Shown here: piece by piece, positions 14,831 to 35,499 of the stretch
Layout: the number at the start of each line of letters is the position of its first letter
How positions within the stretch are numbered: position 1 is the first letter of the stretch
Source: a virus
Lineage: Duplodnaviria; Caudoviricetes
Strand: one strand, 5' to 3'
Virus record (IMG/VR): IMGVR_UViG_3300046719_000042
Location: 1 to 36,159 of that record
Length of the DNA stretch: 36,159 bases
Program-made: the position numbers and the translations under genes
Notes under the pieces: generated by a model
Databases searched by the model: none
Told to the model about the DNA's origin: nothing
What the model saw: only the letters and a program-made list of their open reading frames with translations

Positions 14831-14884
14831 CTCCGATCCATTTGTCGCGACTCGGACCCACCTTGCATCAGTCGGAGTCTCCTG

Positions 14885-18132: not shown

Positions 18133-18150
18133 GTCGCCGGGAGAACCACC

Positions 18151-21100: not shown

Positions 21101-21162
21101 TCGATGTCGCCGGAGCCGGAGCCAAGGGCGCTCAAATCACCTTGGTCGGGAACGAGATCTGA
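18151..21162 (+). CDS. Tail-spike/fibre protein with pectate-lyase-like parallel beta-helix (putative depolymerase)
   Basis: N-terminal fibre repeats (2x GGG..TANR...D.V..HD.S.G; 3x (LP)A(A)T...GG(I/V)). FRPESYGA..AINTCW..GGGTWEI beta-helix cap; Asn-rich coils (SNCRFSDI, SNTFTNCRV, NNFINLRV); YATTAEAITGT repeat; C-terminal beta-sandwich. Confidence 0.8.
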   Translation: MPDQTLDQLTESPSSEETDNLYATRNGNSIRMKLAVALSSRIPATRLVATINGIKGGGDGTANRTHELDVDGLVEDLAPDLTSDFVLSHDTSTGLPRKVRMTRIAGTGTGTTASTPDFAVIASPGQTSVSAVAPSETVNFVAGSNIQIQTDPATKTVRWLLTGLASSTISISAGAGMTGGGNLTANRSLAVDIAGQSEDLTPDLGADYVMTHDASSGLLRRVKLSLLSTSSFTLLTATATRLGGIRIGNGFTYDEITGILSVVPTGTSYVLPAATDTVRGGVRVGTGLTVTGDILANANPTPYVLPAAGVNVLGGIKQGPGIEIAADGTASVSGGSSGTDNSFRPESYGAIRGSGLTQAQRESNTSAINTCWTQASIVKGRVDMGGGTWEIYGTLNLSNTTTLRIEGDWATIRQFQSSVSNIAITNASQITMSGLLLAYQSNQTTGADPVIGETYLAALRLNAVSNCRFSDIDTVNGWVGIGLSGGAGSFSNTFTNCRVNMSTGQSWGLVHKTGNANNFINLRVTGGLSSQTVSGGVHVGSADQVTFTNLVCESLSALRPLSFSGVRAATITGAVFNRISPRATVGFGTLVSASLGAVVQITGVHVANTTLSTASQSMADAVLFAGEDGASFLVASMTLTGTIKDGATRFSLLGHTSSAAAKNVSGTFQQIRLDTTQASPHLMDDLSIATVDPTSDSLVGPLLAYNSVLGDVTGSLFTIGDESLTVYPGVQGRHVQCNTALTAERTVTLSRYIDRSYASGAYTAPRTVRGATFRITRTAVSTGSSLLTVANHNGSSIVGLAANQSVILVFDGTNFVQVPGSLSTGGGGGATVVYATTAEAITGTSTTTVMNPARTKEAFNAMATANEITGVAGQVLGFDASGNAAAVKLTRTITIPLIGEYIQVTTGTQVRRIMMPFSMKLTEVRFYIVSAGTTATTMDVNANGVSILNAPVSVAANTQSTTSSNFTALSTGTLAVNTLVDFDIDVAGAGAKGAQITLVGNEI

Positions 21163-21163
21163 C

Positions 21164-24124
21164 ATGGCGGGGTATTTCAAGAGTCCGGCAGGTCGCTACC
21201 TCAGAAGCCCCGGCGGAAAGGCGGTCAAGGCTGGGACCTTCGTCGCTCCCGTGGCGGATCGCACCATGCTGCCGACGACCCTGACGGTGGACACCAGCGT
21301 TTCCTCCGGGACGGCGATAGCGGATCTCATCTTCTCCGGCTTCCCGGTGTCCGACGTCAATCCCTTCACCTATGAGTTCACCAACGAGTTCTCCGGAGTC
21401 TCCTACACCGCGACCCTGACCGGGAATGCCGGCGGGCGCGTTGCCCTGACCGGAAACTGGGACCAGGGATACAAGCTGGTCGCCGGATTAACCGCCATGG
21501 CTGCCGGAACCTACCCGATCACGATCCAGGTCAGCGGCTTCCCGGAGACCTTCACCATCACCCTGACGGTCACCTCAACGGCAACGGTGGACGAGGTCCT
21601 GTTTACCGCCAAGGTCGAGAACCACGACACCGTGCCTTCCTGGTCTGACCAGGAAATGTCAATTGGCCAGTGGTTCGCTCCGGGAGACGTCAAGCCGGGC
21701 CGCATCGCCGTTCTTTCCGTCGATGGCATCCGCGTGCCGCAGCAGCTTTCCAACCGGACCTACTGGCTCGACGGCAGCCTCAAGCTGGCGCAGGTCCGCT
21801 TCCTGATGCCGGTGGTCGCCGCAGCCGGAATCAAGACGGTGACATGGCAGGCAATCGACGGATCCTGGACCACGACCGATGCCCCCTTCCATACCCAGAC
21901 CACGGCGATAACGTCGAAGGTCTCCCTCAACTATGCCTTCACCTCGTTCAAGGGCAGGACGGCGGCGGCTGTGCTGACCGCCGAGCGGGGGCCAAAAAAC
22001 TTCAAGTCGGCAGACATGTTGGGCTCCGGTAACTCCGCCTGGGTCGAGCGCATCGTGGCCGGGCCGGTGTGCACCGAATGGCGGGCCAGCGACATGGCGA
22101 CCGATGCTGCCGGGGTCCGCTCCGCGACCGAGAACCTCGGGGCCTTCCTCTACGCGCGGGCCTGGGGCGGCACCGTCAACAATCCGAAAAGAATCCAGTT
22201 CTTCTACCGATCGATCTATGGCTGGACGACCGACGTCGCGGCTGACGAGCAGGGCATCCGGGTCGATCTCAACCTGTCCGTCAATGGAACCGTGATCCGG
22301 GGAGCCGCCATTGGGACGACGGGATGGGGTGCCGTCAACGGCTGGAAGGGGGGATTCGTCGTCAGTGCCGGGTCTGAAGGAAAAATGGACTGGTTCGACG
22401 TCGCGACCAACGCCTTCGTGACGCCGCCGAGGTTGATCTACCGCCACGATATTCCGTATGGCGTCAGTGCAAAGTTCGTGCCGCCGTTCGATACCAGTAA
22501 TCCATCGTTTCCCATGACACCGGCGGTCCATACCTACCTGCCGGGACGGCGCGGTCCGCTCCGCCAGACCCAGGACGATGTTTCTGATTCCGCAATGCTC
22601 TGCTGGACCACCGCCAAGCCGATGGCCTGGTGCATTGCCGCACATGCCCGCGCCACGGCACAGCAGGTCTCTGACCACCAGCGGCTGGCCCGCGTCGCTG
22701 GTTTCGGCATGGGAGCGATGACCAACGTCTCGTTCAACCGGACGACTCGGAAGATCGCCTGTTACCTGCCACCGGTGAAATCAACCAACCAAGCGGTCAT
22801 CGGGGCTTCCGTCTGGAACGGTACCAAACCGGCGCAAGCCCCGGAATCCCTGCGGTTCGGCAATCCCGCGAGTGCCGATACCACCAGGGCGGAGATAGAG
22901 CATCTCGACAGCGCTCATATGCCGCAGCTTGCCCTGTGGCCGTATATCTCCGAGGGAGACCAGCACTGGCTCGACCTGATGTATCACGAGGCGACGTTGC
23001 CGGGGCTGAACGAGACGGCGGCCTATGGTTTCTATGGAACATCGGACAGGCTGAAGATCCCGTTCGGGGGAATCGTCTGGCGCGGTCAGATCCGCGGCGT
23101 CGGACATACCGCCCGTCCCATTGGCAATGCGCTGGGCGCCGGCAACCCGGCGGATCCGCATTGGGTCATGATTCGAGACATGCTCGACCACTGGGCGGAG
23201 ATGACCGAGGAACTGCCGCTCGAGGAAGACGCGTGGCGCGGCGGCCTGGCAAAAACGGACGGTCGGCGCTTTTCAGATTTGAAACTGCTGTGGCCGAACA
23301 ACGAGCCAACCTATAAAGTTTGGATGCATACTTTTGGATTACACGCAACTGCATACGCCTTTGGTATCAGTGAGTACCCGCGCCTCAAGTCCCGCGCCGA
23401 GTGGTGGGCGCACTGCCCGACCGTGATGGCGGGTGGCTGGCACAACGACACCACGCCCGAGTCCTACGTTATGAAGCCGGACCCACTGGCGGCAGCGGAC
23501 TATTCCGACGTCTGCATGTCGTCCCCTGGAAACGGCGTGATCGGGACCTCGACGATCGAGGATCGGCGGTACTGGCTTTACGGCCAGTGGAAGAGCGTCG
23601 TGACGGCGACGACCTATAAGGCCGACAACCAGACGCTGTCCTGGGCCGGTCCGATGCAGGGCACGACCGAGATGATGGATGGCATGATCATCACGATCAC
23701 CGGCGTTCGGGAGGCCAACGAGCCGTTCTGGGTCGCAGACATGACGAAGATGCCGGGGCTCCTGACGCGCAACATCCCCTACTACGCCGTCCAAAGCTCC
23801 GGCCTGACCTGCAAGATCTCGCTGTCTCCCGGCGGCAGCCCGGTCACCTTCAACACCTCCGGCGTCGATATCGTCGGCGCCTGCGTCCGAACGGCGGTCG
23901 GTGGACTGCATCCGCTGAGCACCGGCGCCCACGTATCCGTCGATGCCAACAACTACCTGATCCAAGTCTACGCGGCCTTGTCGATGTATCAGCACTACGT
24001 CGCGCCCACGAACCAGCGCGTGCTGTTGGCCCGCCAAAAACTCTTCAACTTAAAAAATACGTCCGCGGCTCCCAACGCCTGGGACGAGAGGGGTAAGGTT
24101 ACCGTGCCCTTGACCCTTCCCTGA
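21164..24124 (+). CDS. Large virion protein with PcRGLX/YetA (PL26)-like lyase architecture
   Basis: SIGQWFAPGDV..VPQQL..YWLDGSLKLA resembles the YetA/PcRGLX N-terminal barrel; AGPVCTEWR; helical region PYISEGDQHWLDLM..QIRGVGH. Start moved to ATG 21164. Confidence 0.6.
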   Translation: MAGYFKSPAGRYLRSPGGKAVKAGTFVAPVADRTMLPTTLTVDTSVSSGTAIADLIFSGFPVSDVNPFTYEFTNEFSGVSYTATLTGNAGGRVALTGNWDQGYKLVAGLTAMAAGTYPITIQVSGFPETFTITLTVTSTATVDEVLFTAKVENHDTVPSWSDQEMSIGQWFAPGDVKPGRIAVLSVDGIRVPQQLSNRTYWLDGSLKLAQVRFLMPVVAAAGIKTVTWQAIDGSWTTTDAPFHTQTTAITSKVSLNYAFTSFKGRTAAAVLTAERGPKNFKSADMLGSGNSAWVERIVAGPVCTEWRASDMATDAAGVRSATENLGAFLYARAWGGTVNNPKRIQFFYRSIYGWTTDVAADEQGIRVDLNLSVNGTVIRGAAIGTTGWGAVNGWKGGFVVSAGSEGKMDWFDVATNAFVTPPRLIYRHDIPYGVSAKFVPPFDTSNPSFPMTPAVHTYLPGRRGPLRQTQDDVSDSAMLCWTTAKPMAWCIAAHARATAQQVSDHQRLARVAGFGMGAMTNVSFNRTTRKIACYLPPVKSTNQAVIGASVWNGTKPAQAPESLRFGNPASADTTRAEIEHLDSAHMPQLALWPYISEGDQHWLDLMYHEATLPGLNETAAYGFYGTSDRLKIPFGGIVWRGQIRGVGHTARPIGNALGAGNPADPHWVMIRDMLDHWAEMTEELPLEEDAWRGGLAKTDGRRFSDLKLLWPNNEPTYKVWMHTFGLHATAYAFGISEYPRLKSRAEWWAHCPTVMAGGWHNDTTPESYVMKPDPLAAADYSDVCMSSPGNGVIGTSTIEDRRYWLYGQWKSVVTATTYKADNQTLSWAGPMQGTTEMMDGMIITITGVREANEPFWVADMTKMPGLLTRNIPYYAVQSSGLTCKISLSPGGSPVTFNTSGVDIVGACVRTAVGGLHPLSTGAHVSVDANNYLIQVYAALSMYQHYVAPTNQRVLLARQKLFNLKNTSAAPNAWDERGKVTVPLTLP

Positions 24125-24220
24125 CCGCCAAGATCGGACAGAAGATGACCCAAACCACCCCGAAACAGATCCAGGACGGGGCAAGAGACATCCCCGTCGC
24201 CGGTGCCGGGATAACGGATC

Positions 24221-25375
24221 TTGGTTGATACCTATGTCAACCTGCTCCGTCCCGGAGGGGCCTGGATTACCGGCGGCCCCGGCACGGTAACGATCGGCAG
24301 CGTAAACGGCCAGATGACGATCGTCGCGGATGGCACCGGCCTGGTATATGCGCGCCGTGGCGTCACGACCCAGGTCAACAAGACCTACCAACTGACCTGG
24401 AGCAACGACACGACCACCCTGATGTTTCGGCAGATTGGCACGGCGGAGGGATTGGGGGACATCCGGGCGGCCAACGTCTCCGCCATCGGGGACAACAAGA
24501 TCGAGTTCGTCGCGACCACCACCACCACCTGGGTCAGCTTCCAGAGAACCACCGCCGCATCCGTCACGATTTCATCCCTGCTTCTCCGGGAGATCCCAGC
24601 CGGCGCCAGCAGCGCGCGCCGGCTGAACGGCAAGAACCAGTATCTCAGCATCGATGCTCAACTGTCTGCGCTTAGGCTGTCCAATGCGAATTGGTATATC
24701 GGTGGGTTCGTGTCGTTCAACTACATGCCGATCGCCGGTGTATACTTTATGGATTTCGGCAGGCTGGATCCCTCGTCTCCGTCCGGCGGCGCAGGCCGGG
24801 TTCGACTTTTTTACGACGTCGACCAGGACAAGATCTCATGCTCCTCATCGGACAGTGCCGCGACGATCTACCGGGAAAACTATCTCATTAAAACCCTTGC
24901 ACTCGACACCTGGTACTACATCGGGATGACGGCGCTCACCAACGCGGATGTCCTCGTCAGGGTGGGGACGGAGAAAGGCTCAAGTTACATTGGGACCATC
25001 GTCCCCACCGTCTCGGTGAGTGACGTGTGCCGCGTTCTTCAGTTCGGTGCCAAGGTCGTCAATCCCAGGAGCAGTTTCTCTCCGTGCAATTTCAGCAACT
25101 GGATTTGGGCCTCAAACTGGATCCCGTCCGATGTCCAGATCAACCTCCTGGCGGGAGGAACGCCGCCAGCCGAAGTTCCTGGCCTTGCCGCTCCGACCGG
25201 AGCCACCCTCTATCACTGGCCCATGTTGGGAGCCACAACGGAGCCAAGCCTGATAGACACTGCCGCACCCCTCGTTTCGAACAGCACCTACGGATCGATC
25301 GTTTCCGTCGTCGGGCCGGTTCTCAACGTCACCGCTACCGTCGTTCCGCCGCAGCTCGACGTCATCATCACCTGA
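24221..25375 (+). CDS. Virion lectin-like protein: CBM-like domain plus LamG-like domain
   Basis: N-half homologous to the repeats of 14014..14772 (KTYQLTW..IGT..IEFVATTTTTWVSFQR). C-half ARRLNGKNQYL..NWYIGGFV..DTWYYIG is LamG-like. The TTG start is uncertain. Confidence 0.7.
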   Translation: MVDTYVNLLRPGGAWITGGPGTVTIGSVNGQMTIVADGTGLVYARRGVTTQVNKTYQLTWSNDTTTLMFRQIGTAEGLGDIRAANVSAIGDNKIEFVATTTTTWVSFQRTTAASVTISSLLLREIPAGASSARRLNGKNQYLSIDAQLSALRLSNANWYIGGFVSFNYMPIAGVYFMDFGRLDPSSPSGGAGRVRLFYDVDQDKISCSSSDSAATIYRENYLIKTLALDTWYYIGMTALTNADVLVRVGTEKGSSYIGTIVPTVSVSDVCRVLQFGAKVVNPRSSFSPCNFSNWIWASNWIPSDVQINLLAGGTPPAEVPGLAAPTGATLYHWPMLGATTEPSLIDTAAPLVSNSTYGSIVSVVGPVLNVTATVVPPQLDVIIT

Positions 25376-25387
25376 AGGAGCGACGAC

Positions 25388-25861
25388 ATGGCCCTGCTCC
25401 TCCAGAACGGAAGCTACCTGCAACTGCAAACCGGCGGTTCCGCCTCGGGCAAGATACTGCTGAAAGGAGATCCTGGAGCCGTGTTCCATGCCCTAGCCCC
25501 GCCATGGCGGACAGCCAACTTCGGGGACGGCACCACCATCGTCTCCTGGACCTCCGCCCTGGATCCATCAGAACGCAAGATCTACACCGTCAACGCTGCC
25601 ACAGAACTCAACGGCATCAACGACACGATCAGTTCCGTCAACGTCGAACTCTCCGGCCTGGCGGCTCTGGTCGGCCTCAGGATCTACGGTGTTACCAACG
25701 ACCTGACCCAGGTCAGCATCTGGTTCGAGATCAACCCGGCGGACCGGGCTCGGCCGGGTTGGGCATCTCCCGGAGAGACCCATCTTGTCACGGTCACCAT
25801 CACATCGATGGGTGGTCACATCTTCCAGAGAGACATCAGCCTCAGGATTCTCCAGCTATAG
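25388..25861 (+). CDS. Putative fibre-anchor/adaptor protein
   Basis: AAGGAG RBS; N-terminal LLLQNGSYLQLQTGG..ILL motif; the domain APPWRT..LDPSERKIYT..FQRDISLRI is repeated at the C-terminus of 26695..29997. Confidence 0.7.
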   Translation: MALLLQNGSYLQLQTGGSASGKILLKGDPGAVFHALAPPWRTANFGDGTTIVSWTSALDPSERKIYTVNAATELNGINDTISSVNVELSGLAALVGLRIYGVTNDLTQVSIWFEINPADRARPGWASPGETHLVTVTITSMGGHIFQRDISLRILQL

Positions 25862-25869
25862 GTAGCGCC

Positions 25870-26181
25870 ATGGTCTTCGAGGTTCCCCAGCAGCAGGAAC
25901 GCTACAAGGACACGGGTCGCAGAGAAATCGTCCTGCTTGGACGCACCGTCCTGGCTAGTCTCGTGAAGCTGAAGGAAGCCGACGCCAACGCGCTCAGAGC
26001 TTCCCACGAGATTTTCGTCGAGAAGTTGCCTGGAGTTCCAAACCAACAACTCCAGGGACAGGTAATAAACTTTGACGGTCGCGACTACCGCGTCATCAAG
26101 GTTACAGATCCCAAGATATCGGATCCGGTCATGCGCGGGCGCTACTTAAGATTGATATCCACTGCCGTGGCCCCCGACTAG
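25870..26181 (+). CDS. Possible head-closure/head-tail joining-like protein (103 aa)
   Basis: True start is ATG 25870. ASHEIFV...VINFDGRDYRVIKV.D...GRYLRLI resembles SPP1 gp16/lambda gpFII-type beta proteins. Confidence 0.5.
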   Translation: MVFEVPQQQERYKDTGRREIVLLGRTVLASLVKLKEADANALRASHEIFVEKLPGVPNQQLQGQVINFDGRDYRVIKVTDPKISDPVMRGRYLRLISTAVAPD

Positions 26182-26253: not shown

Positions 26254-26667
26254 ATGGCCCTAAAGATCACGACCGGCACCGCGGATTCGATGCTCACCAC
26301 CCTGGCGACATCGCTCAACTCCGGCCTTCTTCGGATTTATTCCGGGACAGAACCGGCCACCGCCGACACGGCCTTGTCCGGCAATACCCTTCTCGCCCAG
26401 CTCACATTCGGGGCGACCGCCTTCGCCGCCGCGACGGCTTCGGGAGCGGACCGCATCATTACCGCCAATGCGATTACACAGGATAGCAGCGCAGATGCAG
26501 ATGGCACCGCGACTTTCTTCCGCGCCACCAACACCGCCGGGACAACCACGATATACCAGGGAACGGTCGGCACCAGCGGCCAGCAGCTCAACCTGACGGC
26601 AACCAACATCGTTGCCGGCGGCGTCGTCAGCGTCTCTTCCCTATCGATCACCCTGCCGACGGCCTAA
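26254..26667 (+). CDS. Small conserved virion fibre subunit (candidate 'bead' protein, 137 aa)
   Basis: LRIYSGTEPATADTA...LLAQL...DSSADADGTATFFR...QGTVG...L.L.ATNIVAG..VSVSSLSIT; GGAG RBS; directly precedes a 24-aa-repeat protein. Confidence 0.7.
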   Translation: MALKITTGTADSMLTTLATSLNSGLLRIYSGTEPATADTALSGNTLLAQLTFGATAFAAATASGADRIITANAITQDSSADADGTATFFRATNTAGTTTIYQGTVGTSGQQLNLTATNIVAGGVVSVSSLSITLPTA

Positions 26668-26694
26668 CATTTCCCCTGACATGGGGGAAACCCA

Positions 26695-29600
26695 ATGACG
26701 ACCTACTACGTCAAGAACGGTGGCAACGACAGCGCCGACGGTCTGTCGGATGCCACTGCGTGGGCATCCCTTGGCAAAGCCGCCGGAGCCAATATCGGGG
26801 CCGGGGACTCCGTGCTGTTCAAGCGCGGCAGTCGTTGGAGAGAGGAGTTTGTCTGTTACAAGGGCGGGAGCAGTGTGTCCTCCCGCCTTACCTTCGGAGC
26901 CTATGGCACCGGCACAGCGCCGATCATCGACGGCTCAGACATCATCACCGGCTGGACGATGGAGTCTCCATCCGGCGGTTCATCCGGAGAGGACTTTACC
27001 GACACCAGCGGTTCCCGGCCCATTGCCTGGTGGGGATTTTCGGAAACCACCGGCACGCGGGCCAGCACGGCGGGAACCGGGAACGGACTCGTCCCGAGCA
27101 CAAATTCGCCGACGCGCGGGACTGGCCCCCACGGTCAGTTCTCCGCGGAGTTCGTCAAGGCGTCCTCCCAGCAGTTCACTCTGGCGGAAACCTCCATGAC
27201 GGCCGATTTTCCCGGTCGGTCAACTGTGCCGAACGCATCGGTCACGGTCGGGGGCTGGGTCCGGGTCGACGCTGAGACGGCCGGCGACGGCGGGATCCTT
27301 TCCAAGGACACCAACTACCAGATCATGATCGAGGGCAGCGTTGTCCAGTTCCGGGTATTCGGGGCGAACAACGCCGGGGCGGCGGCCTCCGGGGATAGCA
27401 CGACCTACAGCGCGGGAACCTGGAGGCATTATGTCGGGCGCTGGACGGCGGGTACCGGCGAGACCGTCCTGTTCGTCAACGGCGTCAAGAAGACCCCCGC
27501 GACGATTACCACCAGGAATACCTCGACTGGGGCCTTCCAAGTCGGCAACGCCACCTTCAAGTCTAATTTCGACGGCGCCCTGACCGAACTGTTCGTTTTC
27601 AATACGGCCCTGACCGATGCCCAGATCGCCTCCATCTATAACAGCGGGCTGAATGGCTCCAGAACGCAGGTCGGACCGACCTACTACTACAAGCCCTTTA
27701 CATCGAAACCCGGCGGCGTCTTCAGCGACGGCAATCCGCTCAGGCTCGTTGACCTCAAGGCGGACATGGGCCTCGGCAACGAATGGTGGGATCCGGTCAA
27801 CTTCAGGCAGTATGTCCGTCTTGCCGGTGATGACGCCCCTTCCGGCCACACCATGGAAATCGGGATAAGAACCTATCCCATGCGTATCCAGGGGACGGAT
27901 CACTGGACGATCGAGGATATCTGGGTCAGAGGAGCCTACAAGGCAAATATTTTCGCAGACACGAACAACGACGGCATCGTCCGCCGATGCATACTCACCC
28001 ACGCTTCCGAAAACGGCGTCCACATCTATACCCACACGAACCTCAGCACACAGGGGTTCGAAGTCAGCAACAACGTGTGCTATGCGAACGGCGCCTGTGG
28101 GATCACGGTTGCCGGACAAAACGCGATATCCATGGCTGGCATTCGCATCCGCAACAATGAAACATACGGCAACTGCTGGCAGCCGAGACGAAAAGAAAAT
28201 GACGAGTTTTCCTTTACCGGTGGCATCCGGCCGATCGGCAGGGAGATAAACGACTGCATCATCGAGGATAACTACGTTCACGACGAGGGTATAGATGGCA
28301 ACTATTCCCACGGCTGCGGTATATGGTTCGATACCGTAGGATTGAACTGTATTGCCAGGCGCAATCGTGTTGAGAGAACGTCATCCTGGGGCATCCAGAT
28401 CGAGGACTGTAATTCCGTTAAAGCACACTCAAACGTTGTCGTTGGAACCGTTTATTACCCAGGCATAGCCATCATCAGGAACTGTGACAATAATCTCGTT
28501 TATAATAATACACTGGTTAACTGCCAAGGGGGGTTCAACTTCTCCAATGGTGGCGGCGGATCTCACTTCGCCGGGAACCAGATCTTCAACAACATCGTCA
28601 GCCAAACGACAGGCCGTGTCATCCTGGCGGATACCGGGGTCAATACCGCCGCGAATGTTTCCTTCAACAAAAACCTCTTTGGACCGGCCAGAACCAACTT
28701 CATCTACTGGAACGACGACTACTCCAGCTATGCGGCCTGGGAGCAGGCCCTGGATGGCGCGAGCAATTCGATCCAAGTAAACCCGACCTTTGTCAACGCC
28801 GCCGCTGGGGATTACCATCTTGCGGTTGGATCGTCCGGCCGGAGCGCCGGTGCCGCCTTGCCGGCGGGGACGCTGGATTTCGTCAAGACGGAGTTCTCCG
28901 GCACCCCCAGCGTCGGGGCGCTGGAGCTGTCGTCCGCGACTACGATCCTTGGAACCTCTGCGGTCCGTCTCTCCGCCCTGAGAGGGGCCGGCGTTGGAAC
29001 CCGCGTTCTTCCCGCCCTGGTCGCCACGTCCGCCGTGCGCTTGATCTCCCTGACCGGAACCGGTTTCGGCACCCGGACGATACCGGCGAAAGATGCCACC
29101 TCCGCCGTGCGCTTGACCGCCCTGCGCGGAACTGCGACGGGGACCGCGAGCCTGCCGACCTTCAGGATTGGCGTCTCCGCCGTTTTCCTGACCGCGTTGC
29201 GCGGCACCGCCACCGGTGCCCGGACGATCCCGGCGCGGACCGGGACCTCCGCCTCCAGATGGCCGAACCTTTCCACGCTGGCCCTCGGGACGACCGGCAC
29301 GACGTCCGCCAGGATCGGTGCCTCTGCCGTGCGCCTGACCGCCCTGCGCGGAACCGCCATTGGCGCCAGGGCCATTCCGACGCGCACCGGTACCTCGGCC
29401 GTCGTCTGGCCCAAGCTGTCCGTCTCCGCTCTCGGGACAGCCGGAAACCCAACCTCCAGGATCGGCGTTTCTATCGTTCGCTTGGTGGCGCTGCGTGGCC
29501 TCGGGAACGGCACCAGGACGGTCCCCAACAGGATTGGCACCAGCGCCATCAGGTGGCTGAAGTTCGTCCATGCCGCACTCGGACTGCGGACGGTTCCGGG

Positions 29601-29997
29601 CGGCTTCGACATTGTTCCCCATATCAATGCTCCGGCCTGGAGAACCGCTGACTTTGGCGACGGCAGCGCGCGGGTGTCCTGGCGTTCCGCCCTCGATCCG
29701 GGAGAGAAGAAAGCCTACACCATCAACTGTGGCACGGAACTTGCCGGGGAAAACCGGATCGAGATCGTCAACGTTGCCCTGTCCGGCCTGGCCGTGCTGG
29801 CGGGGCTCCGCATCCGGGCGATGAGCAACGACTTGACCAACGTCACGCTTTGGCTGGAGGTCAATGCTACGGACAGAACGCGGCCCAACTGGAACGGAGA
29901 TGGAGAAACCCACACCCTGACTTGCACCATCGACGTCACGGACGGCCAGCGCTTCGAGCGGGACGTGGCCATCCAGATCAAGCAACTCGGCCAGTGA
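26695..29997 (+). CDS. Modular fibre protein: beta-helix with inserted LamG domain, 9 x 24-aa repeats, C-terminal anchor domain
   Basis: TYYVKNGGNDSADGLS..AW..GDSVLFKRG..FGAYGTG.AP.IDG (right-handed beta-helix start); LamG 26989-27657; Asn ladder; PTFVNAAAGDYHL..GALE end cap; repeats 28945-29601; anchor 29629-29994. Confidence 0.85.
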   Translation: MTTYYVKNGGNDSADGLSDATAWASLGKAAGANIGAGDSVLFKRGSRWREEFVCYKGGSSVSSRLTFGAYGTGTAPIIDGSDIITGWTMESPSGGSSGEDFTDTSGSRPIAWWGFSETTGTRASTAGTGNGLVPSTNSPTRGTGPHGQFSAEFVKASSQQFTLAETSMTADFPGRSTVPNASVTVGGWVRVDAETAGDGGILSKDTNYQIMIEGSVVQFRVFGANNAGAAASGDSTTYSAGTWRHYVGRWTAGTGETVLFVNGVKKTPATITTRNTSTGAFQVGNATFKSNFDGALTELFVFNTALTDAQIASIYNSGLNGSRTQVGPTYYYKPFTSKPGGVFSDGNPLRLVDLKADMGLGNEWWDPVNFRQYVRLAGDDAPSGHTMEIGIRTYPMRIQGTDHWTIEDIWVRGAYKANIFADTNNDGIVRRCILTHASENGVHIYTHTNLSTQGFEVSNNVCYANGACGITVAGQNAISMAGIRIRNNETYGNCWQPRRKENDEFSFTGGIRPIGREINDCIIEDNYVHDEGIDGNYSHGCGIWFDTVGLNCIARRNRVERTSSWGIQIEDCNSVKAHSNVVVGTVYYPGIAIIRNCDNNLVYNNTLVNCQGGFNFSNGGGGSHFAGNQIFNNIVSQTTGRVILADTGVNTAANVSFNKNLFGPARTNFIYWNDDYSSYAAWEQALDGASNSIQVNPTFVNAAAGDYHLAVGSSGRSAGAALPAGTLDFVKTEFSGTPSVGALELSSATTILGTSAVRLSALRGAGVGTRVLPALVATSAVRLISLTGTGFGTRTIPAKDATSAVRLTALRGTATGTASLPTFRIGVSAVFLTALRGTATGARTIPARTGTSASRWPNLSTLALGTTGTTSARIGASAVRLTALRGTAIGARAIPTRTGTSAVVWPKLSVSALGTAGNPTSRIGVSIVRLVALRGLGNGTRTVPNRIGTSAIRWLKFVHAALGLRTVPGGFDIVPHINAPAWRTADFGDGSARVSWRSALDPGEKKAYTINCGTELAGENRIEIVNVALSGLAVLAGLRIRAMSNDLTNVTLWLEVNATDRTRPNWNGDGETHTLTCTIDVTDGQRFERDVAIQIKQLGQ
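28945..29601 (+). repeat. 9 tandem 24-25-aa coding repeats (R.GTSAVRLTALRGTA.G.RT.P)
   Basis: 657 nt = 219 aa = six 24-aa and three 25-aa units, counted by hand. Confidence 0.9.
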
Positions 29998-30039
29998 CAG
30001 TATCCACCAATCACAAGACCCTGAAAGGAAGATGACATT

Positions 30040-30324
30040 ATGGCCGTTCTCTATGACGTAATAGCGTTGTTTGAAATGCTGTATCCAGATATTCCTGTGC
30101 AGTATACTGTTCCATCACCAACGTGGGAGCAAGTAGATGTAATGGCAATGGAGCAAATTCCTCAATGGCAGGGAGTCAGAGCTATACTGGATACTATGGA
30201 ATTCAAAATTACGGCTGGTGTTAAAACCATCTACCCTCCAACACAGCCGTGTGACGAAGAGGTTATAACTAATGCTGCACGGGGGGTTAATGTGACTGTT
30301 GGTGACTTTTCCAATCTTCCTTAA
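30040..30324 (+). CDS. Hypothetical protein, paralog of the next gene, low GC
   Basis: DV..LF..LYPDI...M.QIPQW.GV.A.L.T.E.KI..GV...YP..QP shared with 30346..30600. Confidence 0.75.
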   Translation: MAVLYDVIALFEMLYPDIPVQYTVPSPTWEQVDVMAMEQIPQWQGVRAILDTMEFKITAGVKTIYPPTQPCDEEVITNAARGVNVTVGDFSNLP

Positions 30325-30345
30325 CTAATCAGGAAAGATAAGACA

Positions 30346-30600
30346 ATGGCAAATACCATGGATGTCGCCACCCTGTTCGCCCTGCTGTACCCGGACATTG
30401 AGATTGTCTACGCCAATCCGACGACCATCAGTGAATCGACCATGTCCCAGATTCCTCAGTGGAGAGGCGTGCAAGCACTGCTCTTGACGGTCGAACAGAA
30501 AATTTTGCAGGGAGTCAGGGTGAATTATCCCTTGGCCCAGCCGCTCAACGAGGGTGGTGTCCTTCAAACCCTGATAGAGGTTCCTGCCGTCACGCCGTAA
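30346..30600 (+). CDS. Hypothetical protein, paralog of the previous gene
   Basis: Same LYPDI/QIPQW/YP.QP motifs; AGGA upstream. Confidence 0.75.
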   Translation: MANTMDVATLFALLYPDIEIVYANPTTISESTMSQIPQWRGVQALLLTVEQKILQGVRVNYPLAQPLNEGGVLQTLIEVPAVTP

Positions 30601-30627
30601 CAGGGAATCCGGAAGAGGCTTGGCCCC

Positions 30628-31602
30628 ATGGTAAATACAAAGATCTCCGCGCTGCCCGTCGCGACCACCCCTGTCGCCGGAACAGCCAAAATCCCCATCG
30701 TCCAGGGCGGGGCCACCAAAGTCACGACGGCGGCAGATCTCCGGAACACGCCCGAGCCGTTTGTGATGACCGCGCAGGCGACCGGCAGCGTAACCGCGTC
30801 TGAGACGAATACGATCAAGATGTTCGCCAGATCCTATTCCGGGCGCATCATGCCCGAGTTTGTCAGCGAAACCGGAGTTGATTGCTTCCTTCAGCCATCC
30901 TTGATCAACAACAACCTCATGCTGTGGCAGCCGTCCGTGGGAACCGTCGCCGGCACGATCCTGGGGAACACATTCACGTCCGTGGGGACGGCGAGTCATC
31001 CGGTTCTTGCTTCAACCAATATACAAACGGCGATGCGTCGCACCAACTGGGTCACTACGGCGACAACGGCTGCTACCACCTGCGGGATACGCGGAAACGT
31101 CCCACAGATTTGGCGCGGCAATGCCGCGAACCTCGGCGGATTTCATGCATTTTTTCGCTTCAGCCAGAATACCAATCTGTTGGGACACCAGACATTCGTC
31201 GGACTGGCGGTGTCCACGGCGGTTCTGGGCGGGGACCCATCGGCGCTGACCGACATGATCGGTATCGGCTATGACGGAGCGGATGCCATCGTGAACGGCT
31301 GGCAGCTCATGCGGAACGACGCCACGGGTGCCGCAACGAAGGTATCCCTCGGATCCTCTGCTCCCAGAGACACCAGCACAGTCCTTGATCTCTCCCTCTA
31401 CGCCCCGGCCAACGCATCGTTCATCGGGGTCCGGGTCTACAATCAGAGCACCCAGACGGTCGTTCTGGACAACGTCGCCTACACCACCGACCTGCCGACC
31501 AATACGGCGTTCTTGAACTTCCACGTCCAGACCCGCGTCGGCACCGCTGGAGCGAACCAGAATCTTCAACTGAATAAAATCTATATCGATTCCGATGTCT
31601 GA
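30628..31602 (+). CDS. Putative fibre/spike protein with KISALP-type N-terminal anchor and lectin-like body
   Basis: TKISALPVAT...IPIVQGGATK N-terminus typical of phage fibre attachment domains; beta-rich C-terminal domain ending TDLPT...IYIDSD. Confidence 0.7.
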   Translation: MVNTKISALPVATTPVAGTAKIPIVQGGATKVTTAADLRNTPEPFVMTAQATGSVTASETNTIKMFARSYSGRIMPEFVSETGVDCFLQPSLINNNLMLWQPSVGTVAGTILGNTFTSVGTASHPVLASTNIQTAMRRTNWVTTATTAATTCGIRGNVPQIWRGNAANLGGFHAFFRFSQNTNLLGHQTFVGLAVSTAVLGGDPSALTDMIGIGYDGADAIVNGWQLMRNDATGAATKVSLGSSAPRDTSTVLDLSLYAPANASFIGVRVYNQSTQTVVLDNVAYTTDLPTNTAFLNFHVQTRVGTAGANQNLQLNKIYIDSDV

Positions 31603-31697
31603 CCGTCCCCATCCGGGAGCCGCGCCCATGGCCGATGTCCATATCCTAGAGATGCGGCACCCCCTCTGCCGGAGATCCGCGACCGGGACCGTCTTCC

Positions 31698-34600
31698 ATG
31701 GGTGAAATCCTGATCCTGATGGAGAGCGGGGATACCCTCCTCGCCGAAGACGATTCACTTTTACAGCAAGAGCCGCCGCCTCCAGCGGAAAACTTTACGG
31801 ATGGCACGGGGGTAAAGCCGGTCGCGTGGTGGTATTTCAGCGAGACTTCCGGCAACAGAGCCAGTTCTGCCGGATCCAGCGATGTCCTGGTCCCCAGCGC
31901 CAGCGCACCGACTCGCGGTACCGGGCCGCACGACTATTACTCAGCCGAGTTCGTCAAGGCATCGTCCCAGCAGTTCAATCTTGCCGATGCCAGTATGTCG
32001 TCGACCTTCCCAGGCAAGAACGGCCTGACGAACGGCGACTTCACGATGGGCGGCTGGATGCGCGTCGACAGCGAAACCAGCGGTGACGGCGGCATTTGGT
32101 CGAAGGACACGAACTTTCAGTTCGTTGTCGAAGGCCCGGTGATCTTCCGGATTTTCTCCAGCGGAAACGGTGCCACTGGCTATTCCTACGATGACGCGGG
32201 GATGTCCTACGGGACGTGGAAACACTATGTCGGCCGCTGGACGGCGGCAACCGGTGCCGTCGAGCTTTTTGTCAATGGCGTCAAGCAGTCGAGGGTGGAT
32301 ACCGTCTCCACCCGCAATACCTGGACTACCGATATGTTCGTCGGTAACGCAACCTTCAAAAGTAATTTTGACGGTGCGCTTGCCGAGCTTTTCGTCTTCG
32401 ACAGCGCTCTCACGGACGATCAGATTCTATCCATTTACACGAATGGACTGGACGCGCGGCGAGCGGTTGTTGAAATCAGCGGCACCAGCGCTGTCATCTC
32501 TCCAAAGCTTACCGGTACCGCGTCCGGTTCAAGGACCATTCCGGACCGAACCGGCACAAGCGCCGTCACATCGCCTAAGCTTACCGGCACCGCAACCGCT
32601 TCAAGGACGATCCCAAGTAGGACCGGCACCAGCGCTGTCATCTCTCCAAAGCTTACCGGTACCGCGACGGCTTCAAGGACAATTCCAGACAGGGCAGGCA
32701 CCAGCGCCGTCACATCGCCAAAGCTTATTGGAGCCGCGTCCGGTTCAAGGACCATCCCGGACAGGACCGGCACCAGCGCCGTTATATCGCCGAAGCTTAC
32801 CGGCACCGCAACCGCTTCAAGGACGATCCCAGACAGGATAGGTACCAGCGCCGTATCCCTATTCCCTGTCCTCCACGTCGCCAACGTCCAACACTATGCT
32901 GGAAACGAGTTCTCCTACGAATTCTCCAGTGAGTTCACCGTTCAGACCATCGACGCACTAAGCGGCACGTCGGTCTCAACTCTTCCAAAAGCCACCACGA
33001 CCGCGACCGGCGGCAGAAGCATCCCGGACAGGATCGCCAGCGGTGCCGTCACATGGACAAAGCTGACCACGGCTTCCAGCGCCAGCCGGACCATCCCGGA
33101 CAGGATCGCAATCTCAGCCGTGACTTGGCCGAAGCTTACCGGCGTGGCGGCAGGTTCCAGAACCATCCCAAACAGGACAGCCACCTCCAGCGGAATACTG
33201 CCCAAGGCGACGGCGGCTGCGGCCGGAGCCAGGACGATCCCAAATCGGACAGGGACATCCTCTGCGACCTTGGTTGCCCTTTCCCAGACGGCGACGGGAA
33301 GTCGTCTGGCCCCGACGGTTATCGGCATCAGCGCATCCACGGTGCCAAAGGCAACGGGCAGCGGTGCCGGTTCCCGGACATCGCCGGCCAGGACTGGCAC
33401 CAGCGCTGTAACGCTGCCGTTGCTTGGTCACAGCGCTCTGGGCGGGAGATCCCTGCCCGGCAACACAGGCGCCTCGGCTATCATCCTGCCAATCCTGACA
33501 GGCACCGCAGCAGGCATCAGAACAGTACCGGCACGCACAGGCGGAAGCGCCGTCGTCCTGTCTGCACTGACCGGCACCTCTGCCGGGACCAGGACGATCC
33601 CCCAGAGAACCGGCTCCGGCACCGCCACATGGCCCAAACTGACGACGGTAACCGTCGCCTCCCGGACCATCCCGGTGCGTTCCGGCACCATCTCCGTGAC
33701 GTTGCCGAAAGCGACGAGCACCGCCACCGCGTTCCGGACCCTGCCCGACCGAACCGGCGGCAGTGCTGTCAGGTTGTCGTCCCTGGCAGGGGCCGGGACC
33801 GGCTCACGGACCGTCCCCGCCCTCTCCGGGAACAGCGCCGTGACGTGGGTTAAGCTGGCCGGTCTTGGCTCAGGAGGGAGATCTATCCCGACCAGATCCG
33901 GCACAAGCATTTCGATCCTGCGCTTTCCACAGACAGCGGCAGCCGGCTCCCGCACTCCTCCGATGCTGACCGCTACGTCGCTTGGGGCGCTGCCATTTCC
34001 CACTCACGGCGCCGCCGGTCAAAGAAGCCCGCCGGAGCGCATCGCCAGTTCAGGCGTCACGCTGCCTATGCCGACATCGTCGGCGACCGGGGCCAGGCAG
34101 CCTCCCGAGGCCATTGCGGTCTCCGCCGTCACGCTTCCCAAGCCGACCGTGGTCGCGATCGGCTCACGACAGCCCCCAGCAGCCGTCGTCACCAGTACCG
34201 TGACGCTGCCCACCATGACAGCGGCCGGAGCGGGCTCCCGCACGATCCCCATCCGAACCGGAAGTTCAAGCTCCACGGTCTCCAAACTGAGCCACTCCGC
34301 CACTGGACAGCGCGGTATCGGTGGACTCGATGGCCTCAGCAGCACCCGGTTCCCGAAACCGACCGGCACCGGCACGGGGTCCAGGACGATCCCGGCGCGG
34401 ACGGGAACGTCGGCCACCATCCTGCCGTTCCCGCTGGTCTCCTCCCTGGGCATCCGGATCGCCCCGGCAGCCGTCGGCACTTCCGCCGTCACGCTGCCCA
34501 GGTTGGGCCATGCGGCAGCCGGAGAGGCATTGCTGCCCGGCATCTACGCGGACAGTTCCGTCACCCTGCCGACCCTCACCGGAAGTGCGGCCGGGACCCG

Positions 34601-35126
34601 CTCAATCCCGTCCAGGGTTGCCACCGGCTCTGTCAGGTTCCCGACCTTCCGCACCAGTTCTGACGGGTCCAGGACGATCCCGCAGCGGACGGGATCAATC
34701 TCCGGCGTCCTGCCCTTCCTGCGCTCCAGCGGACAGGGACAACCGTTTCCACCCGGCATAACCGGCACGTCTGCTCTTTCCCTTTCTCTCCCGGCTCACG
34801 TCGCGGACGGCGCCACCATCCTTCCGATCAGGAACGGCGTCAGCCAGGTTGTCCTGCGTCGTCCAACCCATAGCGCGGAAGGCATTACTTCCCTGCCGCT
34901 CCGGGACGCGACCAGCTCCGTTACCCTGCCCTTCCCCCATCATCAGGCGGCGGGGAGATTCGTCGTTCCGGGCGCTATCGACCTTGTCTGGGAAGTGCAA
35001 ATGGAGGGCGGTACGCTGGCTCCGGACGCATCTCTGTCGGGAGCGGCATCCGTCGAGGTGGACATGGGCGGCGGGAAGTCTCCGGACGTTTACCTGATCG
35101 CCACCGTTTCCGCGGCCCCCCAGTAA
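31698..35126 (+). CDS. Long repeat ('rope') fibre protein: docking peptide, LamG domain, ~34 x 24-aa repeats
   Basis: N-terminal ILMESGDTLLAEDDSLLQQE; LamG 31788-32453 closely homologous to that in 26695..29997; repeats 32475-34973. Confidence 0.85.
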   Translation: MGEILILMESGDTLLAEDDSLLQQEPPPPAENFTDGTGVKPVAWWYFSETSGNRASSAGSSDVLVPSASAPTRGTGPHDYYSAEFVKASSQQFNLADASMSSTFPGKNGLTNGDFTMGGWMRVDSETSGDGGIWSKDTNFQFVVEGPVIFRIFSSGNGATGYSYDDAGMSYGTWKHYVGRWTAATGAVELFVNGVKQSRVDTVSTRNTWTTDMFVGNATFKSNFDGALAELFVFDSALTDDQILSIYTNGLDARRAVVEISGTSAVISPKLTGTASGSRTIPDRTGTSAVTSPKLTGTATASRTIPSRTGTSAVISPKLTGTATASRTIPDRAGTSAVTSPKLIGAASGSRTIPDRTGTSAVISPKLTGTATASRTIPDRIGTSAVSLFPVLHVANVQHYAGNEFSYEFSSEFTVQTIDALSGTSVSTLPKATTTATGGRSIPDRIASGAVTWTKLTTASSASRTIPDRIAISAVTWPKLTGVAAGSRTIPNRTATSSGILPKATAAAAGARTIPNRTGTSSATLVALSQTATGSRLAPTVIGISASTVPKATGSGAGSRTSPARTGTSAVTLPLLGHSALGGRSLPGNTGASAIILPILTGTAAGIRTVPARTGGSAVVLSALTGTSAGTRTIPQRTGSGTATWPKLTTVTVASRTIPVRSGTISVTLPKATSTATAFRTLPDRTGGSAVRLSSLAGAGTGSRTVPALSGNSAVTWVKLAGLGSGGRSIPTRSGTSISILRFPQTAAAGSRTPPMLTATSLGALPFPTHGAAGQRSPPERIASSGVTLPMPTSSATGARQPPEAIAVSAVTLPKPTVVAIGSRQPPAAVVTSTVTLPTMTAAGAGSRTIPIRTGSSSSTVSKLSHSATGQRGIGGLDGLSSTRFPKPTGTGTGSRTIPARTGTSATILPFPLVSSLGIRIAPAAVGTSAVTLPRLGHAAAGEALLPGIYADSSVTLPTLTGSAAGTRSIPSRVATGSVRFPTFRTSSDGSRTIPQRTGSISGVLPFLRSSGQGQPFPPGITGTSALSLSLPAHVADGATILPIRNGVSQVVLRRPTHSAEGITSLPLRDATSSVTLPFPHHQAAGRFVVPGAIDLVWEVQMEGGTLAPDASLSGAASVEVDMGGGKSPDVYLIATVSAAPQ
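32475..34973 (+). repeat. 72-nt (24-aa) tandem coding repeats: 5 units + 1 interrupted unit + 28 units
   Basis: Consensus RTGTSAVTLPKLTGTA.GSRTIP. The second block, 32958-34973, is 2016 nt = exactly 28 x 72. The first five units are near-identical in DNA. Confidence 0.92.
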
Positions 35127-35145
35127 TTCGAGTAAGGACCATCCG

Positions 35146-35499
35146 ATGGATTTCACGCTCTATCAGGGAGACACCAAGCGCCTTCACTTCTCCCTGAAGC
35201 GGGACGACGGAACAGCCCTCGAACTGACCGGCGCCACGCTGCGATGGCAGGCGTCCAAGCTTAAGGCCACCGGCGTATTTTCCTCGACTCCCGTCCTCCA
35301 GAAAACCGAAACCGACGGCATCCAGATCGACGACGAGACCGGCGGTCTCGTGACCGTCGTTCTCGAACCGGAAGATACGGTGAACCTCAGCGGTTTATTT
35401 TACCACGAACTCGAGGCAATCGATGCCAGCGGAGACGTGGCCACGGTCTTCACCGGAGAGTTCGAGATCAAAAAAGCCCTCATCAAACCCCCTACCTAA
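35146..35499 (+). CDS. BppU N-terminal-like adaptor/anchor protein (117 aa)
   Basis: FTLYQGDT..L.F.L....GTALELTGAT...GLVTVVLEPEDT..L.G.FYHELE..D..G.V.T...G.F.I pattern; AAGGA RBS. Confidence 0.65.
   Translation: MDFTLYQGDTKRLHFSLKRDDGTALELTGATLRWQASKLKATGVFSSTPVLQKTETDGIQIDDETGGLVTVVLEPEDTVNLSGLFYHELEAIDASGDVATVFTGEFEIKKALIKPPT

What the first reader, a model, noticed from the sequence alone, without database searches (positions are those of the whole stretch)
26254..35499. Two-length 'rope-and-bead' filament system: one bead gene, two rulers (9 vs ~34 repeats)
Seen: a 137-aa beta-rich protein precedes two proteins with the same strictly periodic 24-aa Thr/Ser/Gly/Ala repeat (9 units; 33 units plus one interrupted). 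Each carries lectin or enzyme domains at the N-terminus. The short one ends in an anchor domain; the long one is followed by a separate BppU-like gene. Known (from memory, to be verified): in Ralstonia podophage GP4, chain-like fibres are small-protein dimers threaded on an elongated rope protein and held by a fibre adaptor ring. Inference: each repeat donates a strand to a bead subunit, so repeat number sets filament length like a tape measure. That would give a short enzyme-tipped filament and a roughly 4x longer lectin-tipped one (upper bounds about 70 and 270 nm if fully extended).
Basis: partly seen in the sequence, partly recalled or inferred. Interest (0 to 1): 0.85.

Follow-up and report, generated by a model that had tools for sequence, protein, structure and literature searches.

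The report
Two beaded phage fibres, one bead
This uncultured long-tailed phage carries one small protein related to the 'beads' of known beads-on-a-string phage fibres and two repeat proteins with 9 and 33 repeats, so it likely builds a short and a long beaded fibre, the long one with about three times as many predicted bead sites as the longest chain in the structures I found (11 bead pairs).

Summary
Largely confirmed; a new variant of a known kind. The 137-aa protein is a homolog of solved chain-fibre beads (A1002 gp40, E 1e-12; fold matches 7-7-1 garland, Sf14/Bas63 whisker, GP4 fibre I). Rope A has 9 units spaced 24/25 (not strictly 24) and ends in a GP4 gp77-like adaptor (Z 10.3). Rope B has 5+28 units and is followed by a BppU/LtfC-like gene. 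Such repeat proteins lie downstream of 39 of 50 bead homologs, upstream of 3 of 65. A bead-rope prediction gave only weak support (0.59; controls 0.00).
Corrections: one repeat likely binds a bead dimer (A1002: 20.5 aa per dimer), giving about 9 and 33 dimers, roughly 25-75 and 90-270 nm. 'Enzyme tip' is unproven. 'One bead' is true only at sequence level. The phage has a lambda-like tail and the module lies among head/neck genes.
Against: GP4's likely rope has 10-11 units but five reported dimers; AlphaFold coils the lone repeats into a low-confidence solenoid.
New lead: a rope-tip peptide may dock a separate receptor-binding protein. The scan found this fibre type before on other DNA (22 notes), including a long/short pair.

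The parts
25388..25861 (+). Standalone gp77-like collar/adaptor protein (157 aa) with an N-terminal Leu-rich peptide like that of rope B
   Evidence: Pfam Gp77 E 5.5e-5, below cut-off; ortholog in L003 E 1e-8, above cut-off; 49% identical to rope A's anchor; peptide
25879..26181 (+). About 100-aa head-completion-like protein between collar and bead; role unknown, start codon not fixed
   Evidence: Pfam Phage_HCP E 0.001, below cut-off; similar genes at this position in L002 and L003
26254..26667 (+). Bead: 137-aa chain-fibre subunit, predicted to act as a dimer
   Evidence: PHROG 3758 E 7e-34; PDB 44nx_B E 9.6e-13 and 9rkv_A E 1.6e-7; AF2 pLDDT 90.7; VIA Z 14.8 9rkv_A, 9.6 9c39_K, 6.8 8jou_a
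26695..28947 (+). Rope A tip (res 1-751): right-handed beta-helix with an inserted LamG domain (27205-27630)
   Evidence: Pfam Laminin_G_3 E 7e-17, Beta_helix E 3e-11; N-cap like 7V6M/6KQS only
28948..29604 (+). Rope A array: 9 units of 24/25 aa (res 752-970)
29620..29997 (+). Rope A fused anchor: GP4 gp77-like Ig domain
   Evidence: Foldseek top hit 8jou_B E 4.5e-5; VIA 8jou_D Z 10.3, rmsd 1.8 over 89 residues; Pfam Gp77 precomputed on 12 of 15 homologs
30040..30600 (+). Two small paralogous genes (94 and 84 aa) of unknown role; in sister phage G004 a second bead gene lies just before their orthologs
   Evidence: no Pfam or PHROG hit
30628..31602 (+). 324-aa candidate tip-docked receptor-binding protein (inferred)
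   Evidence: PHROG 13925 E 1e-41; Atlas neighbours carry Mtd_N in 15% and 70% of members, one LamG-like cluster at TM 0.62; its N-terminal motif co-occurs with the rope peptide in window, L004 and L008
31698..32477 (+). Rope B tip (res 1-260): Leu-rich N-terminal peptide plus LamG domain
   Evidence: Pfam Laminin_G_3 E 7e-16; peptide
32478..32837 (+). Rope B distal block: 5 near-identical units (82% DNA identity; likely a recent amplification)
   Evidence: TRF period 72, 5.2 copies
32838..32960 (+). Broken unit plus insert (41 aa, with a Phe-spaced motif)
32961..34976 (+). Rope B proximal block: 28 units of exactly 24 aa (46% DNA identity between units)
34977..35126 (+). Rope B C-terminal tail (49 aa), predicted to insert into the next gene's product
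   Evidence: similar tails precede BppU-like genes in L002, L003, L004 and L073; a different 9-aa tail precedes gp77 genes
35146..35499 (+). BppU_N/LtfC-like Ig adaptor (117 aa), likely the anchor of rope B
   Evidence: PHROG 1084 E 4e-12; orthologs BppU_N E 1.1e-5 and 6.4e-5; Atlas TM 0.80-0.84 to BppU/LtfC clusters; no Pfam hit for this copy itself

Best explanation
The 137-aa protein is a homolog of solved chain-fibre beads and the two neighbouring proteins carry 9 and 33 repeats, so the phage likely builds two beads-on-a-rope fibres in which each 24-aa repeat is predicted to thread one bead dimer. Steps: (1) shown: bead homology, the repeat arrays, and a gp77-like fold at the end of rope A. 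(2) From solved relatives (A1002, Bas63): bead dimers have incomplete beta-sandwiches that an extended rope chain completes; the anchor is C-terminal and the cap domain N-terminal. (3) Inferred: each unit is strand-turn-strand-turn with mirror symmetry and gives one strand to each monomer of a two-fold dimer, so rope A holds about 9 dimers and rope B about 33 (25-75 nm and 90-270 nm). (4) Inferred: rope A attaches through its fused gp77-like domain, probably in a neck collar with the standalone gp77-like protein; rope B attaches by its C-terminal tail to the BppU/LtfC-like adaptor. (5) Inferred: the fibres hold sugar-binding tips (LamG; a single-chain beta-helix) away from the head/neck for first, reversible attachment, separate from the lambda-like tail tip. 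Repeat number sets the maximum bead count.
For: Bead. Anchor. Co-occurrence: among bead clusters (90% identity) with 5 kb or more of flank, a 19-30-aa Ser/Thr/Gly/Ala repeat protein lies downstream in 39 of 50 and upstream in 3 of 65; with 8 kb, 32 of 37 and 3 of 49. Of 59 ropes, 10 are followed by gp77, 5 by a BppU-like gene and 2 have gp77 fused. Calibration: A1002 fibre-dock res 243-468 holds 11 dimers, 20.5 aa each. In its 620/620-aligned ortholog KPP25 ORF005, a motif taken from the window's unit columns 8-11 occurs 5 times, all in res 250-351 (0 of 10000 shuffles of that region reach 5), and seven hydrophobic-Pro sites at about 20-aa spacing match the seven gp40 dimers (region chosen by eye). 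Bas63 fits two dimers before collar Cys52. Complex of 4 beads + rope B res 590-648: weak support, score 0.59, best of 3 controls 0.00; runs agree in at least 93% of contacts; rope pLDDT 70-72 with beads, 32 when the bead was replaced. The mark was reached by 116 of 157 solved complexes and 2 of 215 mismatched pairs, but at 0.60 or under by only 18 of the 157 and by both mismatches; like complexes are solved, so the pass may reflect likeness. Sister phage G004 has a second bead and a second unit type on one rope, as A1002 does.
Against: The complex pass is weak and gave no contacts, so stoichiometry was not read from it. The full repeat profile does not detect A1002's units (1430 of 2000 shuffles scored as high) nor any PDB rope; only the 4-residue motif does, and just 14 of 36 window units match it. 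GP4's probable rope (325 aa, 99.7% identical to Gervaise gp17) has 10-11 units of 20 aa, while five dimers are reported: either five were resolved or a unit serves one monomer. AF2 coils 7 lone units of rope A into a solenoid-like shape at pLDDT 30-54. The second-closest solved homolog is the 7-7-1/Milano garland, for which no string is identified. 36 of 59 ropes had no anchor gene that I could detect, and 11 of 50 bead loci no downstream rope. No virion, expression or host data.
Confidence: 0.75

Rival explanations
1. Same rope-and-bead fibres, but each 24-aa unit binds one bead monomer, giving about 4-5 and 16-17 dimers.
For: GP4's probable rope has 10-11 units of 20 aa and 8JOU holds 10 bead chains.
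Against: A1002, whose bead is the direct sequence homolog, uses about 20.5 aa per dimer. Bas63 has at most about 51 aa for four monomers. The unit is mirror-symmetric. GP4's rope identity is my inference and its distal dimers may be unresolved, as in VP1.
Confidence: 0.1
2. The window's bead coats only one rope or one block, and an undetected divergent second bead (gp41-like) coats the rest.
For: The closest relatives G002, G003 and G004 each have two bead genes. My broad profile misses KPP25 gp41 (E 44), so a remote bead would be missed. The small genes were not tested by fold.
Against: Rope A and both blocks of rope B are one unit type (similarity 23-35), unlike G004's second type (3-12 against type 1). 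The position of G004's second bead is empty here. No other window or G001 ORF scores below E 0.1. This rival changes the 'one bead' claim, not the fibre mechanism.
Confidence: 0.07
3. The repeats fold on their own as a beta-solenoid stalk (monomer or trimer), and the bead forms a garland or baseplate-type polymer independent of them.
For: AF2's lone-chain model coils the units and aligns to solenoids with trimming off (9h78_B Z 8.0). Ser/Thr/Gly/Ala-rich 20-25-aa repeats are typical of beta-helices (general knowledge). 7-7-1/Milano garland dimers have no identified string.
Against: pLDDT is 30-54 for that part (the alignment had only 2-3 rows there, so this is weak). Pro sits at column 22 in 35 of 36 units. 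Linkage to bead and adaptor genes is strong. The rope fragment gains confidence only with beads. The Milano authors themselves propose a string protein.
Confidence: 0.07

Closest known systems
Chain-like fibre of Pseudomonas podophage A1002 (gp40/gp41 dimers on nozzle-rope gp39; PDB 44NX, 26GP; PMC13730344)
   Same: Bead is a full-length sequence homolog of gp40 (E 1e-12). Rope follows the bead gene. About 20-24 aa per site, a shared hydrophobic-Pro motif, N-terminal cap domain, C-terminal anchor.
   Different: A1002: podophage, one rope fused to the nozzle, two beads, 11 dimers, irregular units, Ig cap. Here: lambda-like tail, two ropes, one detected bead, 9 and 33 regular units, LamG/beta-helix tips, Ig-type adaptors.
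Fibre I of Ralstonia podophage GP4 (gp80 dimers, separate rope, gp77 adaptor; PDB 8JOU; original paper not in the library, known here through PMC13730344 and PMC12609058)
   Same: gp77-like adaptor fold (Z 10.3) and bead fold (Z 6.8, rmsd 3.4 over 104). Rope B plus a separate adaptor mirrors GP4's separate rope.
   Different: Five dimers reported. Its probable rope has no lectin tip. Rope B's adaptor is BppU/LtfC-like, not gp77; rope A's gp77-like domain is fused.
Collar-whisker complex of myophages Bas63 and Sf14 (PDB 9MT4, 9C39; PMC12609058, PMC11821841)
   Same: Neck location; rope fused N-terminally to an Ig-like collar, as in rope A; whisker fold Z 9.6, rmsd 2.8 over 108.
   Different: Two dimers per rope and no tip domain.
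Baseplate arm and garland proteins: phi812 gp118 on arm scaffold gp117, A511 gp105, Milano gp125/gp127, 7-7-1 gp014 (PMC13433997, PMC10811340, PMC12796354)
   Same: Same dimer family threaded on an extended chain (phi812 six dimers, A511 three). 7-7-1 gp014 is the best fold match (Z 14.8, rmsd 2.6 over 133).
   Different: Baseplate of contractile tails; receptor-binding trimers dock on loops of the scaffold; garland string unidentified.

Membership tests
GP4/A1002/Bas63-type rope-and-bead chain fibre | Small subunit with N-terminal helix and incomplete beta-sandwich, homologous to gp80/gp40/whisker | tested here: met
GP4/A1002/Bas63-type rope-and-bead chain fibre | Linked rope protein with serial sites of about 20-25 aa | tested here: met
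GP4/A1002/Bas63-type rope-and-bead chain fibre | Rope units homologous in sequence to a solved rope | tested here: inconclusive
   motif test positive; full profile negative
GP4/A1002/Bas63-type rope-and-bead chain fibre | Bead binds rope by beta-augmentation | tested here: inconclusive
   weak support 0.59 against 0.00, no contacts given
GP4/A1002/Bas63-type rope-and-bead chain fibre | Subunit is a homodimer, one dimer per site | tested here: inconclusive
   inferred from A1002 and Bas63 and mirror symmetry; GP4 count disagrees
GP4/A1002/Bas63-type rope-and-bead chain fibre | Ig-like adaptor/collar (gp77) anchoring the rope's C-terminal end | tested here: met
   rope A; standalone copy:
GP4/A1002/Bas63-type rope-and-bead chain fibre | Beaded fibres present on the virion | not testable with these tools
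   uncultured phage; needs EM or proteomics
BppU_N/LtfC-like Ig adaptor (35146-35499) | Pfam BppU_N or LtfC at gathering threshold | tested here: inconclusive
   window copy and L004 ortholog have no hit; L002 ortholog 25.6 bits and L003 23.1 bits against cut-off 23.1; Atlas fold TM 0.80-0.84
Beta-helix glycosidase or lyase (rope A tip) | Right-handed beta-helix fold | tested here: met
   PF13229 43.6 bits against cut-off 25.9
Beta-helix glycosidase or lyase (rope A tip) | Catalytic residues of a named GH/PL family | not tested
   only res 2-78 align to 7V6M/6KQS
Milano/7-7-1 baseplate garland | Contractile-tail baseplate context | tested here: not met
   downstream genes of the same phage (G001) read as a tape measure and lambda gpM/gpL-like proteins, and relatives continue to gpK/I/J-like genes (named by eye, no family scan); the module lies between major capsid and head-tail adaptor genes

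The most novel reading that the evidence does not exclude
A lambda-like phage builds a programmable two-length appendage set from one bead: repeat number acts as a second tape measure (9 against 33 dimers, up to about 270 nm). The long rope ends in a plug-and-socket peptide that captures a separately encoded Mtd-like receptor-binding protein, so length, anchor and tip are three independently swappable modules. Relatives vary each part: 5-33 units, several anchor types, LamG or apiosidase-like domains spliced mid-rope, and a second bead with its own unit code in G004.
Probability: 0.3. Interest if true: 0.72.

Novelty: new variant of a known kind. Interest (0 to 1): 0.5.

Why it matters
Solved rope-and-bead fibres found here carry 2-11 dimers on podophage or myophage particles, and the A1002 paper never uses the word 'repeat' (0 occurrences). 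This locus suggests that the design extends to long head/neck appendages of lambda-like phages, that its sites can be counted from sequence, and that sugar-binding tips and anchors are exchangeable. It offers a candidate make-up for long flexible head fibres whose proteins are unknown (for example those of 7-7-1; a lead only, not tested) and a simple two-protein, length-encoded nanofibre that can be tested by co-expression.

Tried and rejected
1) Full-length rope B against PDB sequences: 0 hits at E<=1; rope profile A2: no relevant hit; anchor profile A3: no gp77 hit by sequence, found only by fold. 2) Window repeat PSSM on KPP25/A1002 gp39: negative. 3) Second bead in window or G001 by broad HMM and hhalign: none, but the test also misses gp41, so it is inconclusive. 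4) External control of 30 loci (440 kb) without a bead hit: 4 rope hits; two lie on contigs whose bead is just outside the stretch (L101, L110) and two are cut by a contig end (L105, L114), so the control is uninformative. 5) Bead length against rope period: rho 0.57 over 55 beads, but mostly one clade event (+4-aa hairpin in all 9 beads of the window's clade, 24-aa ropes); L071, L203 and L205 have long periods without that insertion and L192 has it with a 20-aa call; kept as a lead, not as co-evolution. 6) Assembly artefact of the 72-bp block: rejected, units differ (82% identity) and L001 is identical. 7) GP4's probable rope is absent from PDB sequences, so its identity could not be confirmed. 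8) Passages of PMC13252515, PMC13250141 (phiKZ) and bioRxiv 2026.04.21.720040 (Goslar) showed no rope-threaded fibre of this kind. 9) The rope detector's shuffle control (maximum 1.07 in 300 ORFs) used a 96-aa window; the counts used a 72-aa window with threshold 1.45 and were not re-shuffled.


Full report
Context. The window is a virus record of 36,159 nt. It runs from a terminase-like gene, portal, scaffold and major capsid gene to a head-tail adaptor at its right end. A longer contig with the same sequence over the finding (L001/G001, 48 kb, 60% complete; 0 mismatches in 9246 nt) continues into a tape-measure gene and lambda gpM/gpL-like genes, and relatives continue to gpK/I/J-like and tail-fibre genes (named by eye). 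The module therefore lies among head/neck genes of a long-tailed, lambda-like phage, apart from the tail tip.

Observation. The four ORFs exist. Rope A has 9 units at res 752-970 with spacings 24 x5 and 25 x3. Rope B has 5 units, a 41-aa interruption, then 28 units, all at exactly 24. Self-similarity is 1.94 and 1.70 against shuffle maxima of 0.14 and -0.20 (200 shuffles each). In 36 units, Gly/Ala dominate columns 2, 15 and 17, Ser column 4, hydrophobic residues columns 6, 8, 11 and 21, and Pro fills column 22 in 35. The column profile is mirror-symmetric about 9.5/21.5; 104 of 5000 column permutations reach that score. This modestly fits a chain crossing a two-fold dimer.

The bead. phmmer against 177,635 PDB sequences gave 3 hits at E<=1: A1002 gp40 (44nx_B, E 9.6e-13, full length), 7-7-1 gp014 (9rkv_A, E 1.6e-7) and one chance hit. 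The AF2 model (pLDDT 90.7) matches 9rkv_A (Z 14.8, rmsd 2.6, 133 aligned), the Sf14 whisker (9.6, 2.8, 108), GP4 fibre I (6.8, 3.4, 104), the phi812 baseplate (6.4) and the Bxb1 tail tip (6.2); values under 8 are weak alone. The family is large (2069 proteins).

The anchors. A model of rope A res 800-1100 has pLDDT about 90 in the last 125 residues and 30-54 in the repeats. Its best matches are GP4 gp77 (Foldseek E 4.5e-5; VIA Z 10.3, rmsd 1.8 over 89) and the 7-7-1 collar (Z 8.7). A second, standalone gp77-like gene lies at 25388-25861. The gene after rope B has no Pfam hit itself, but two of three orthologs reach the BppU_N cut-off, and the Atlas places it among BppU/LtfC-like Ig folds. Among 59 ropes in related loci, 10 are followed by gp77, 5 by this BppU-like family, 2 have gp77 fused, 6 are truncated and 36 have no anchor I detected; the rope's C-terminal tail differs in pattern between the first two groups.

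Linkage. From 170 bead-anchored loci plus the window, 174 bead ORFs fell into 117 clusters at 90% identity. With 5 kb or more of flank, a 19-30-aa Ser/Thr/Gly/Ala repeat protein of at least 5 units lay downstream in 39 of 50 and upstream in 3 of 65. Unit counts ran from 5 to 33 and periods from 20 to 29. Six loci had two ropes (L001, L004, L031, L039, L084, L205; L039's second is far upstream and may be unrelated), so the pair is not unique, and 28-33 units recur in this clade (L004, L016, L105). L006 has a LamG domain and L071 an apiosidase-like domain in mid-array. An external control was uninformative.

Binding. Four beads with rope B res 590-648 gave weak support: 0.59 against a best control of 0.00, runs agreeing in at least 93% of contacts, rope pLDDT 70-72 (32 with the bead replaced). 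The mark was reached by 116 of 157 solved complexes and 2 of 215 mismatches, but at 0.60 or under by only 18 of the 157 and by both mismatches. Like complexes are solved, so this may show likeness only; no contacts were given. The lone-chain AF2 model coils the repeats and, untrimmed, aligns to solenoids (Z up to 8.0), which keeps a self-folding rival alive at low confidence.

Stoichiometry. A1002's fibre-dock segment 243-468 carries 11 dimers, 20.5 aa each, with an Ig domain capping the distal N-terminal end and the anchor C-terminal. KPP25 ORF005 aligns to it over 620 of 620 residues with no visible difference. The window's full profile does not find its units. A 4-residue motif from the window's columns 8-11 does occur five times, only within res 250-351 (0 of 10,000 region shuffles), and seven hydrophobic-Pro sites are spaced about 20 apart, matching seven gp40 dimers (region picked by eye, and only 14 of 36 window units match the motif). 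Bas63 fits two dimers before collar Cys52. Against this, the gene after the bead in GP4's congener Gervaise (99.7% identical in GP4) has 10-11 units of 20 aa, while five dimers are reported for GP4; it is not in PDB sequences, so I could not confirm that it is the rope. I favour one dimer per unit: 9 and 33 dimers, 25 and 90 nm at A1002's mean packing, 75 and 270 nm fully extended.

One bead or two. G002, G003 and G004 each have two bead genes; G001 and G005 have one. In G004 the distal 14 units of rope B form a second type (47 within, 3-12 against type 1) and a second bead gene sits between the ropes. In the window that place is empty, and the distal five units are a near-identical block with similarity to both types (27 to G004's second type, 34-35 to type 1). 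This fits loss or non-acquisition of the second bead. My profile also misses A1002's gp41, so a remote second bead is not excluded.

Tips. Rope A's tip is a beta-helix with an inserted LamG domain; only its cap resembles GH136-type proteins, so catalysis is unproven. Rope B begins with a Leu-rich peptide shared with the standalone gp77-like protein. A gene with a characteristic N-terminal motif lies just upstream of such ropes in the window, L004 and the distant 29-aa clade L008; Atlas neighbours of this 324-aa protein carry Mtd_N in 15% and 70% of members. Docking of a receptor-binding protein at the tip is an untested inference.

Literature seen. PMC13730344: abstract, passages, sections 9, 11, 12. 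PMC12609058, PMC13433997, PMC10811340, PMC11821841, PMC13252515, PMC13250141 and bioRxiv 10.64898/2026.04.21.720040: passages. PMC12796354: abstract and passages. The GP4 and VP1 papers were not seen and are known only through these. No supplements were read; figures of rope-dimer register there could bear on stoichiometry. Seven searches listed no paper on repeat-counted ropes, ropes above 11 dimers, or this fibre in a lambda-like phage; most subscription journals are outside the library. Earlier notes of this scan report the type on other DNA (22 findings; a long/short pair).

Verdict. A real feature and a probable member of the GP4/A1002/Bas63 rope-and-bead class. It is a new variant by its length, two ropes with different anchors, lectin-type tips and head/neck position in a lambda-like phage. 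Mechanism confidence 0.75; interest 0.5.

Noticed in passing
window 31698-31772, 25388-25430, 30628-30660, 18151-18190; L004, L008: A Leu-rich N-terminal peptide on rope B and on the standalone gp77-like protein co-occurs with genes that start with a KISxLP-type or related motif; candidate plug-and-socket for hanging fibres or receptor-binding proteins.
   Followed up: partly
L004 13779-14195 and 15881-19168: Sister phage with two beads and one rope made of two unit types, an A1002-like two-bead code readable from sequence.
   Followed up: partly
L006 12910-16887; L071 2266-5964; L015 7296-9986: Ropes with LamG or apiosidase-like domains spliced mid-array, and one rope of reversed polarity (units N-terminal to a SASA esterase).
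   Followed up: partly
L210 2288-3265 (Ralstonia phage Gervaise gp17; 99.7% identical in GP4): Probable GP4 rope has 10-11 units of 20 aa although five dimers are reported; the real fibre may be twice the modelled length.
   Followed up: partly
L092 5465-6682; L093 5831-7612: Cultured mycobacteriophages Charlie (gp22) and Papyrus (gp32) have 21-aa arrays two genes upstream of a bead homolog, with C-terminal tip domains; testable systems.
   Followed up: no
window 12994-25375: About 12 kb of further decoration genes between capsid and collar: a SASA esterase protein (944 aa), two proteins of about 1000 aa, two 138-aa paralogs and a 384-aa protein.
   Followed up: no
window 4676-6384: Two TylF/Methyltransf_24-type methyltransferase genes between portal and head-morphogenesis genes.
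   Followed up: no
window 14-1495: Terminase-like ORF with a weak intein-splicing hit, E 9e-4, below cut-off.
   Followed up: no
window 32838-32960 and within 21104-24124: A Phe-spaced short motif occurs in rope B's insert and near residue 90 of the 1006-aa protein; possibly another docking peptide.
   Followed up: no
L025, L030, L036, L051, L064, L075: Many 21-aa ropes end in an acidic-then-Leu-rich C-terminal motif instead of a gp77 or BppU tail: a further, unidentified anchor type.
   Followed up: no
L089, L090 9992-10549: Roseomonas beads carry about 50 extra residues inserted near the C-terminal end, and L090's rope has an Ig-like domain fused at its end.
   Followed up: no
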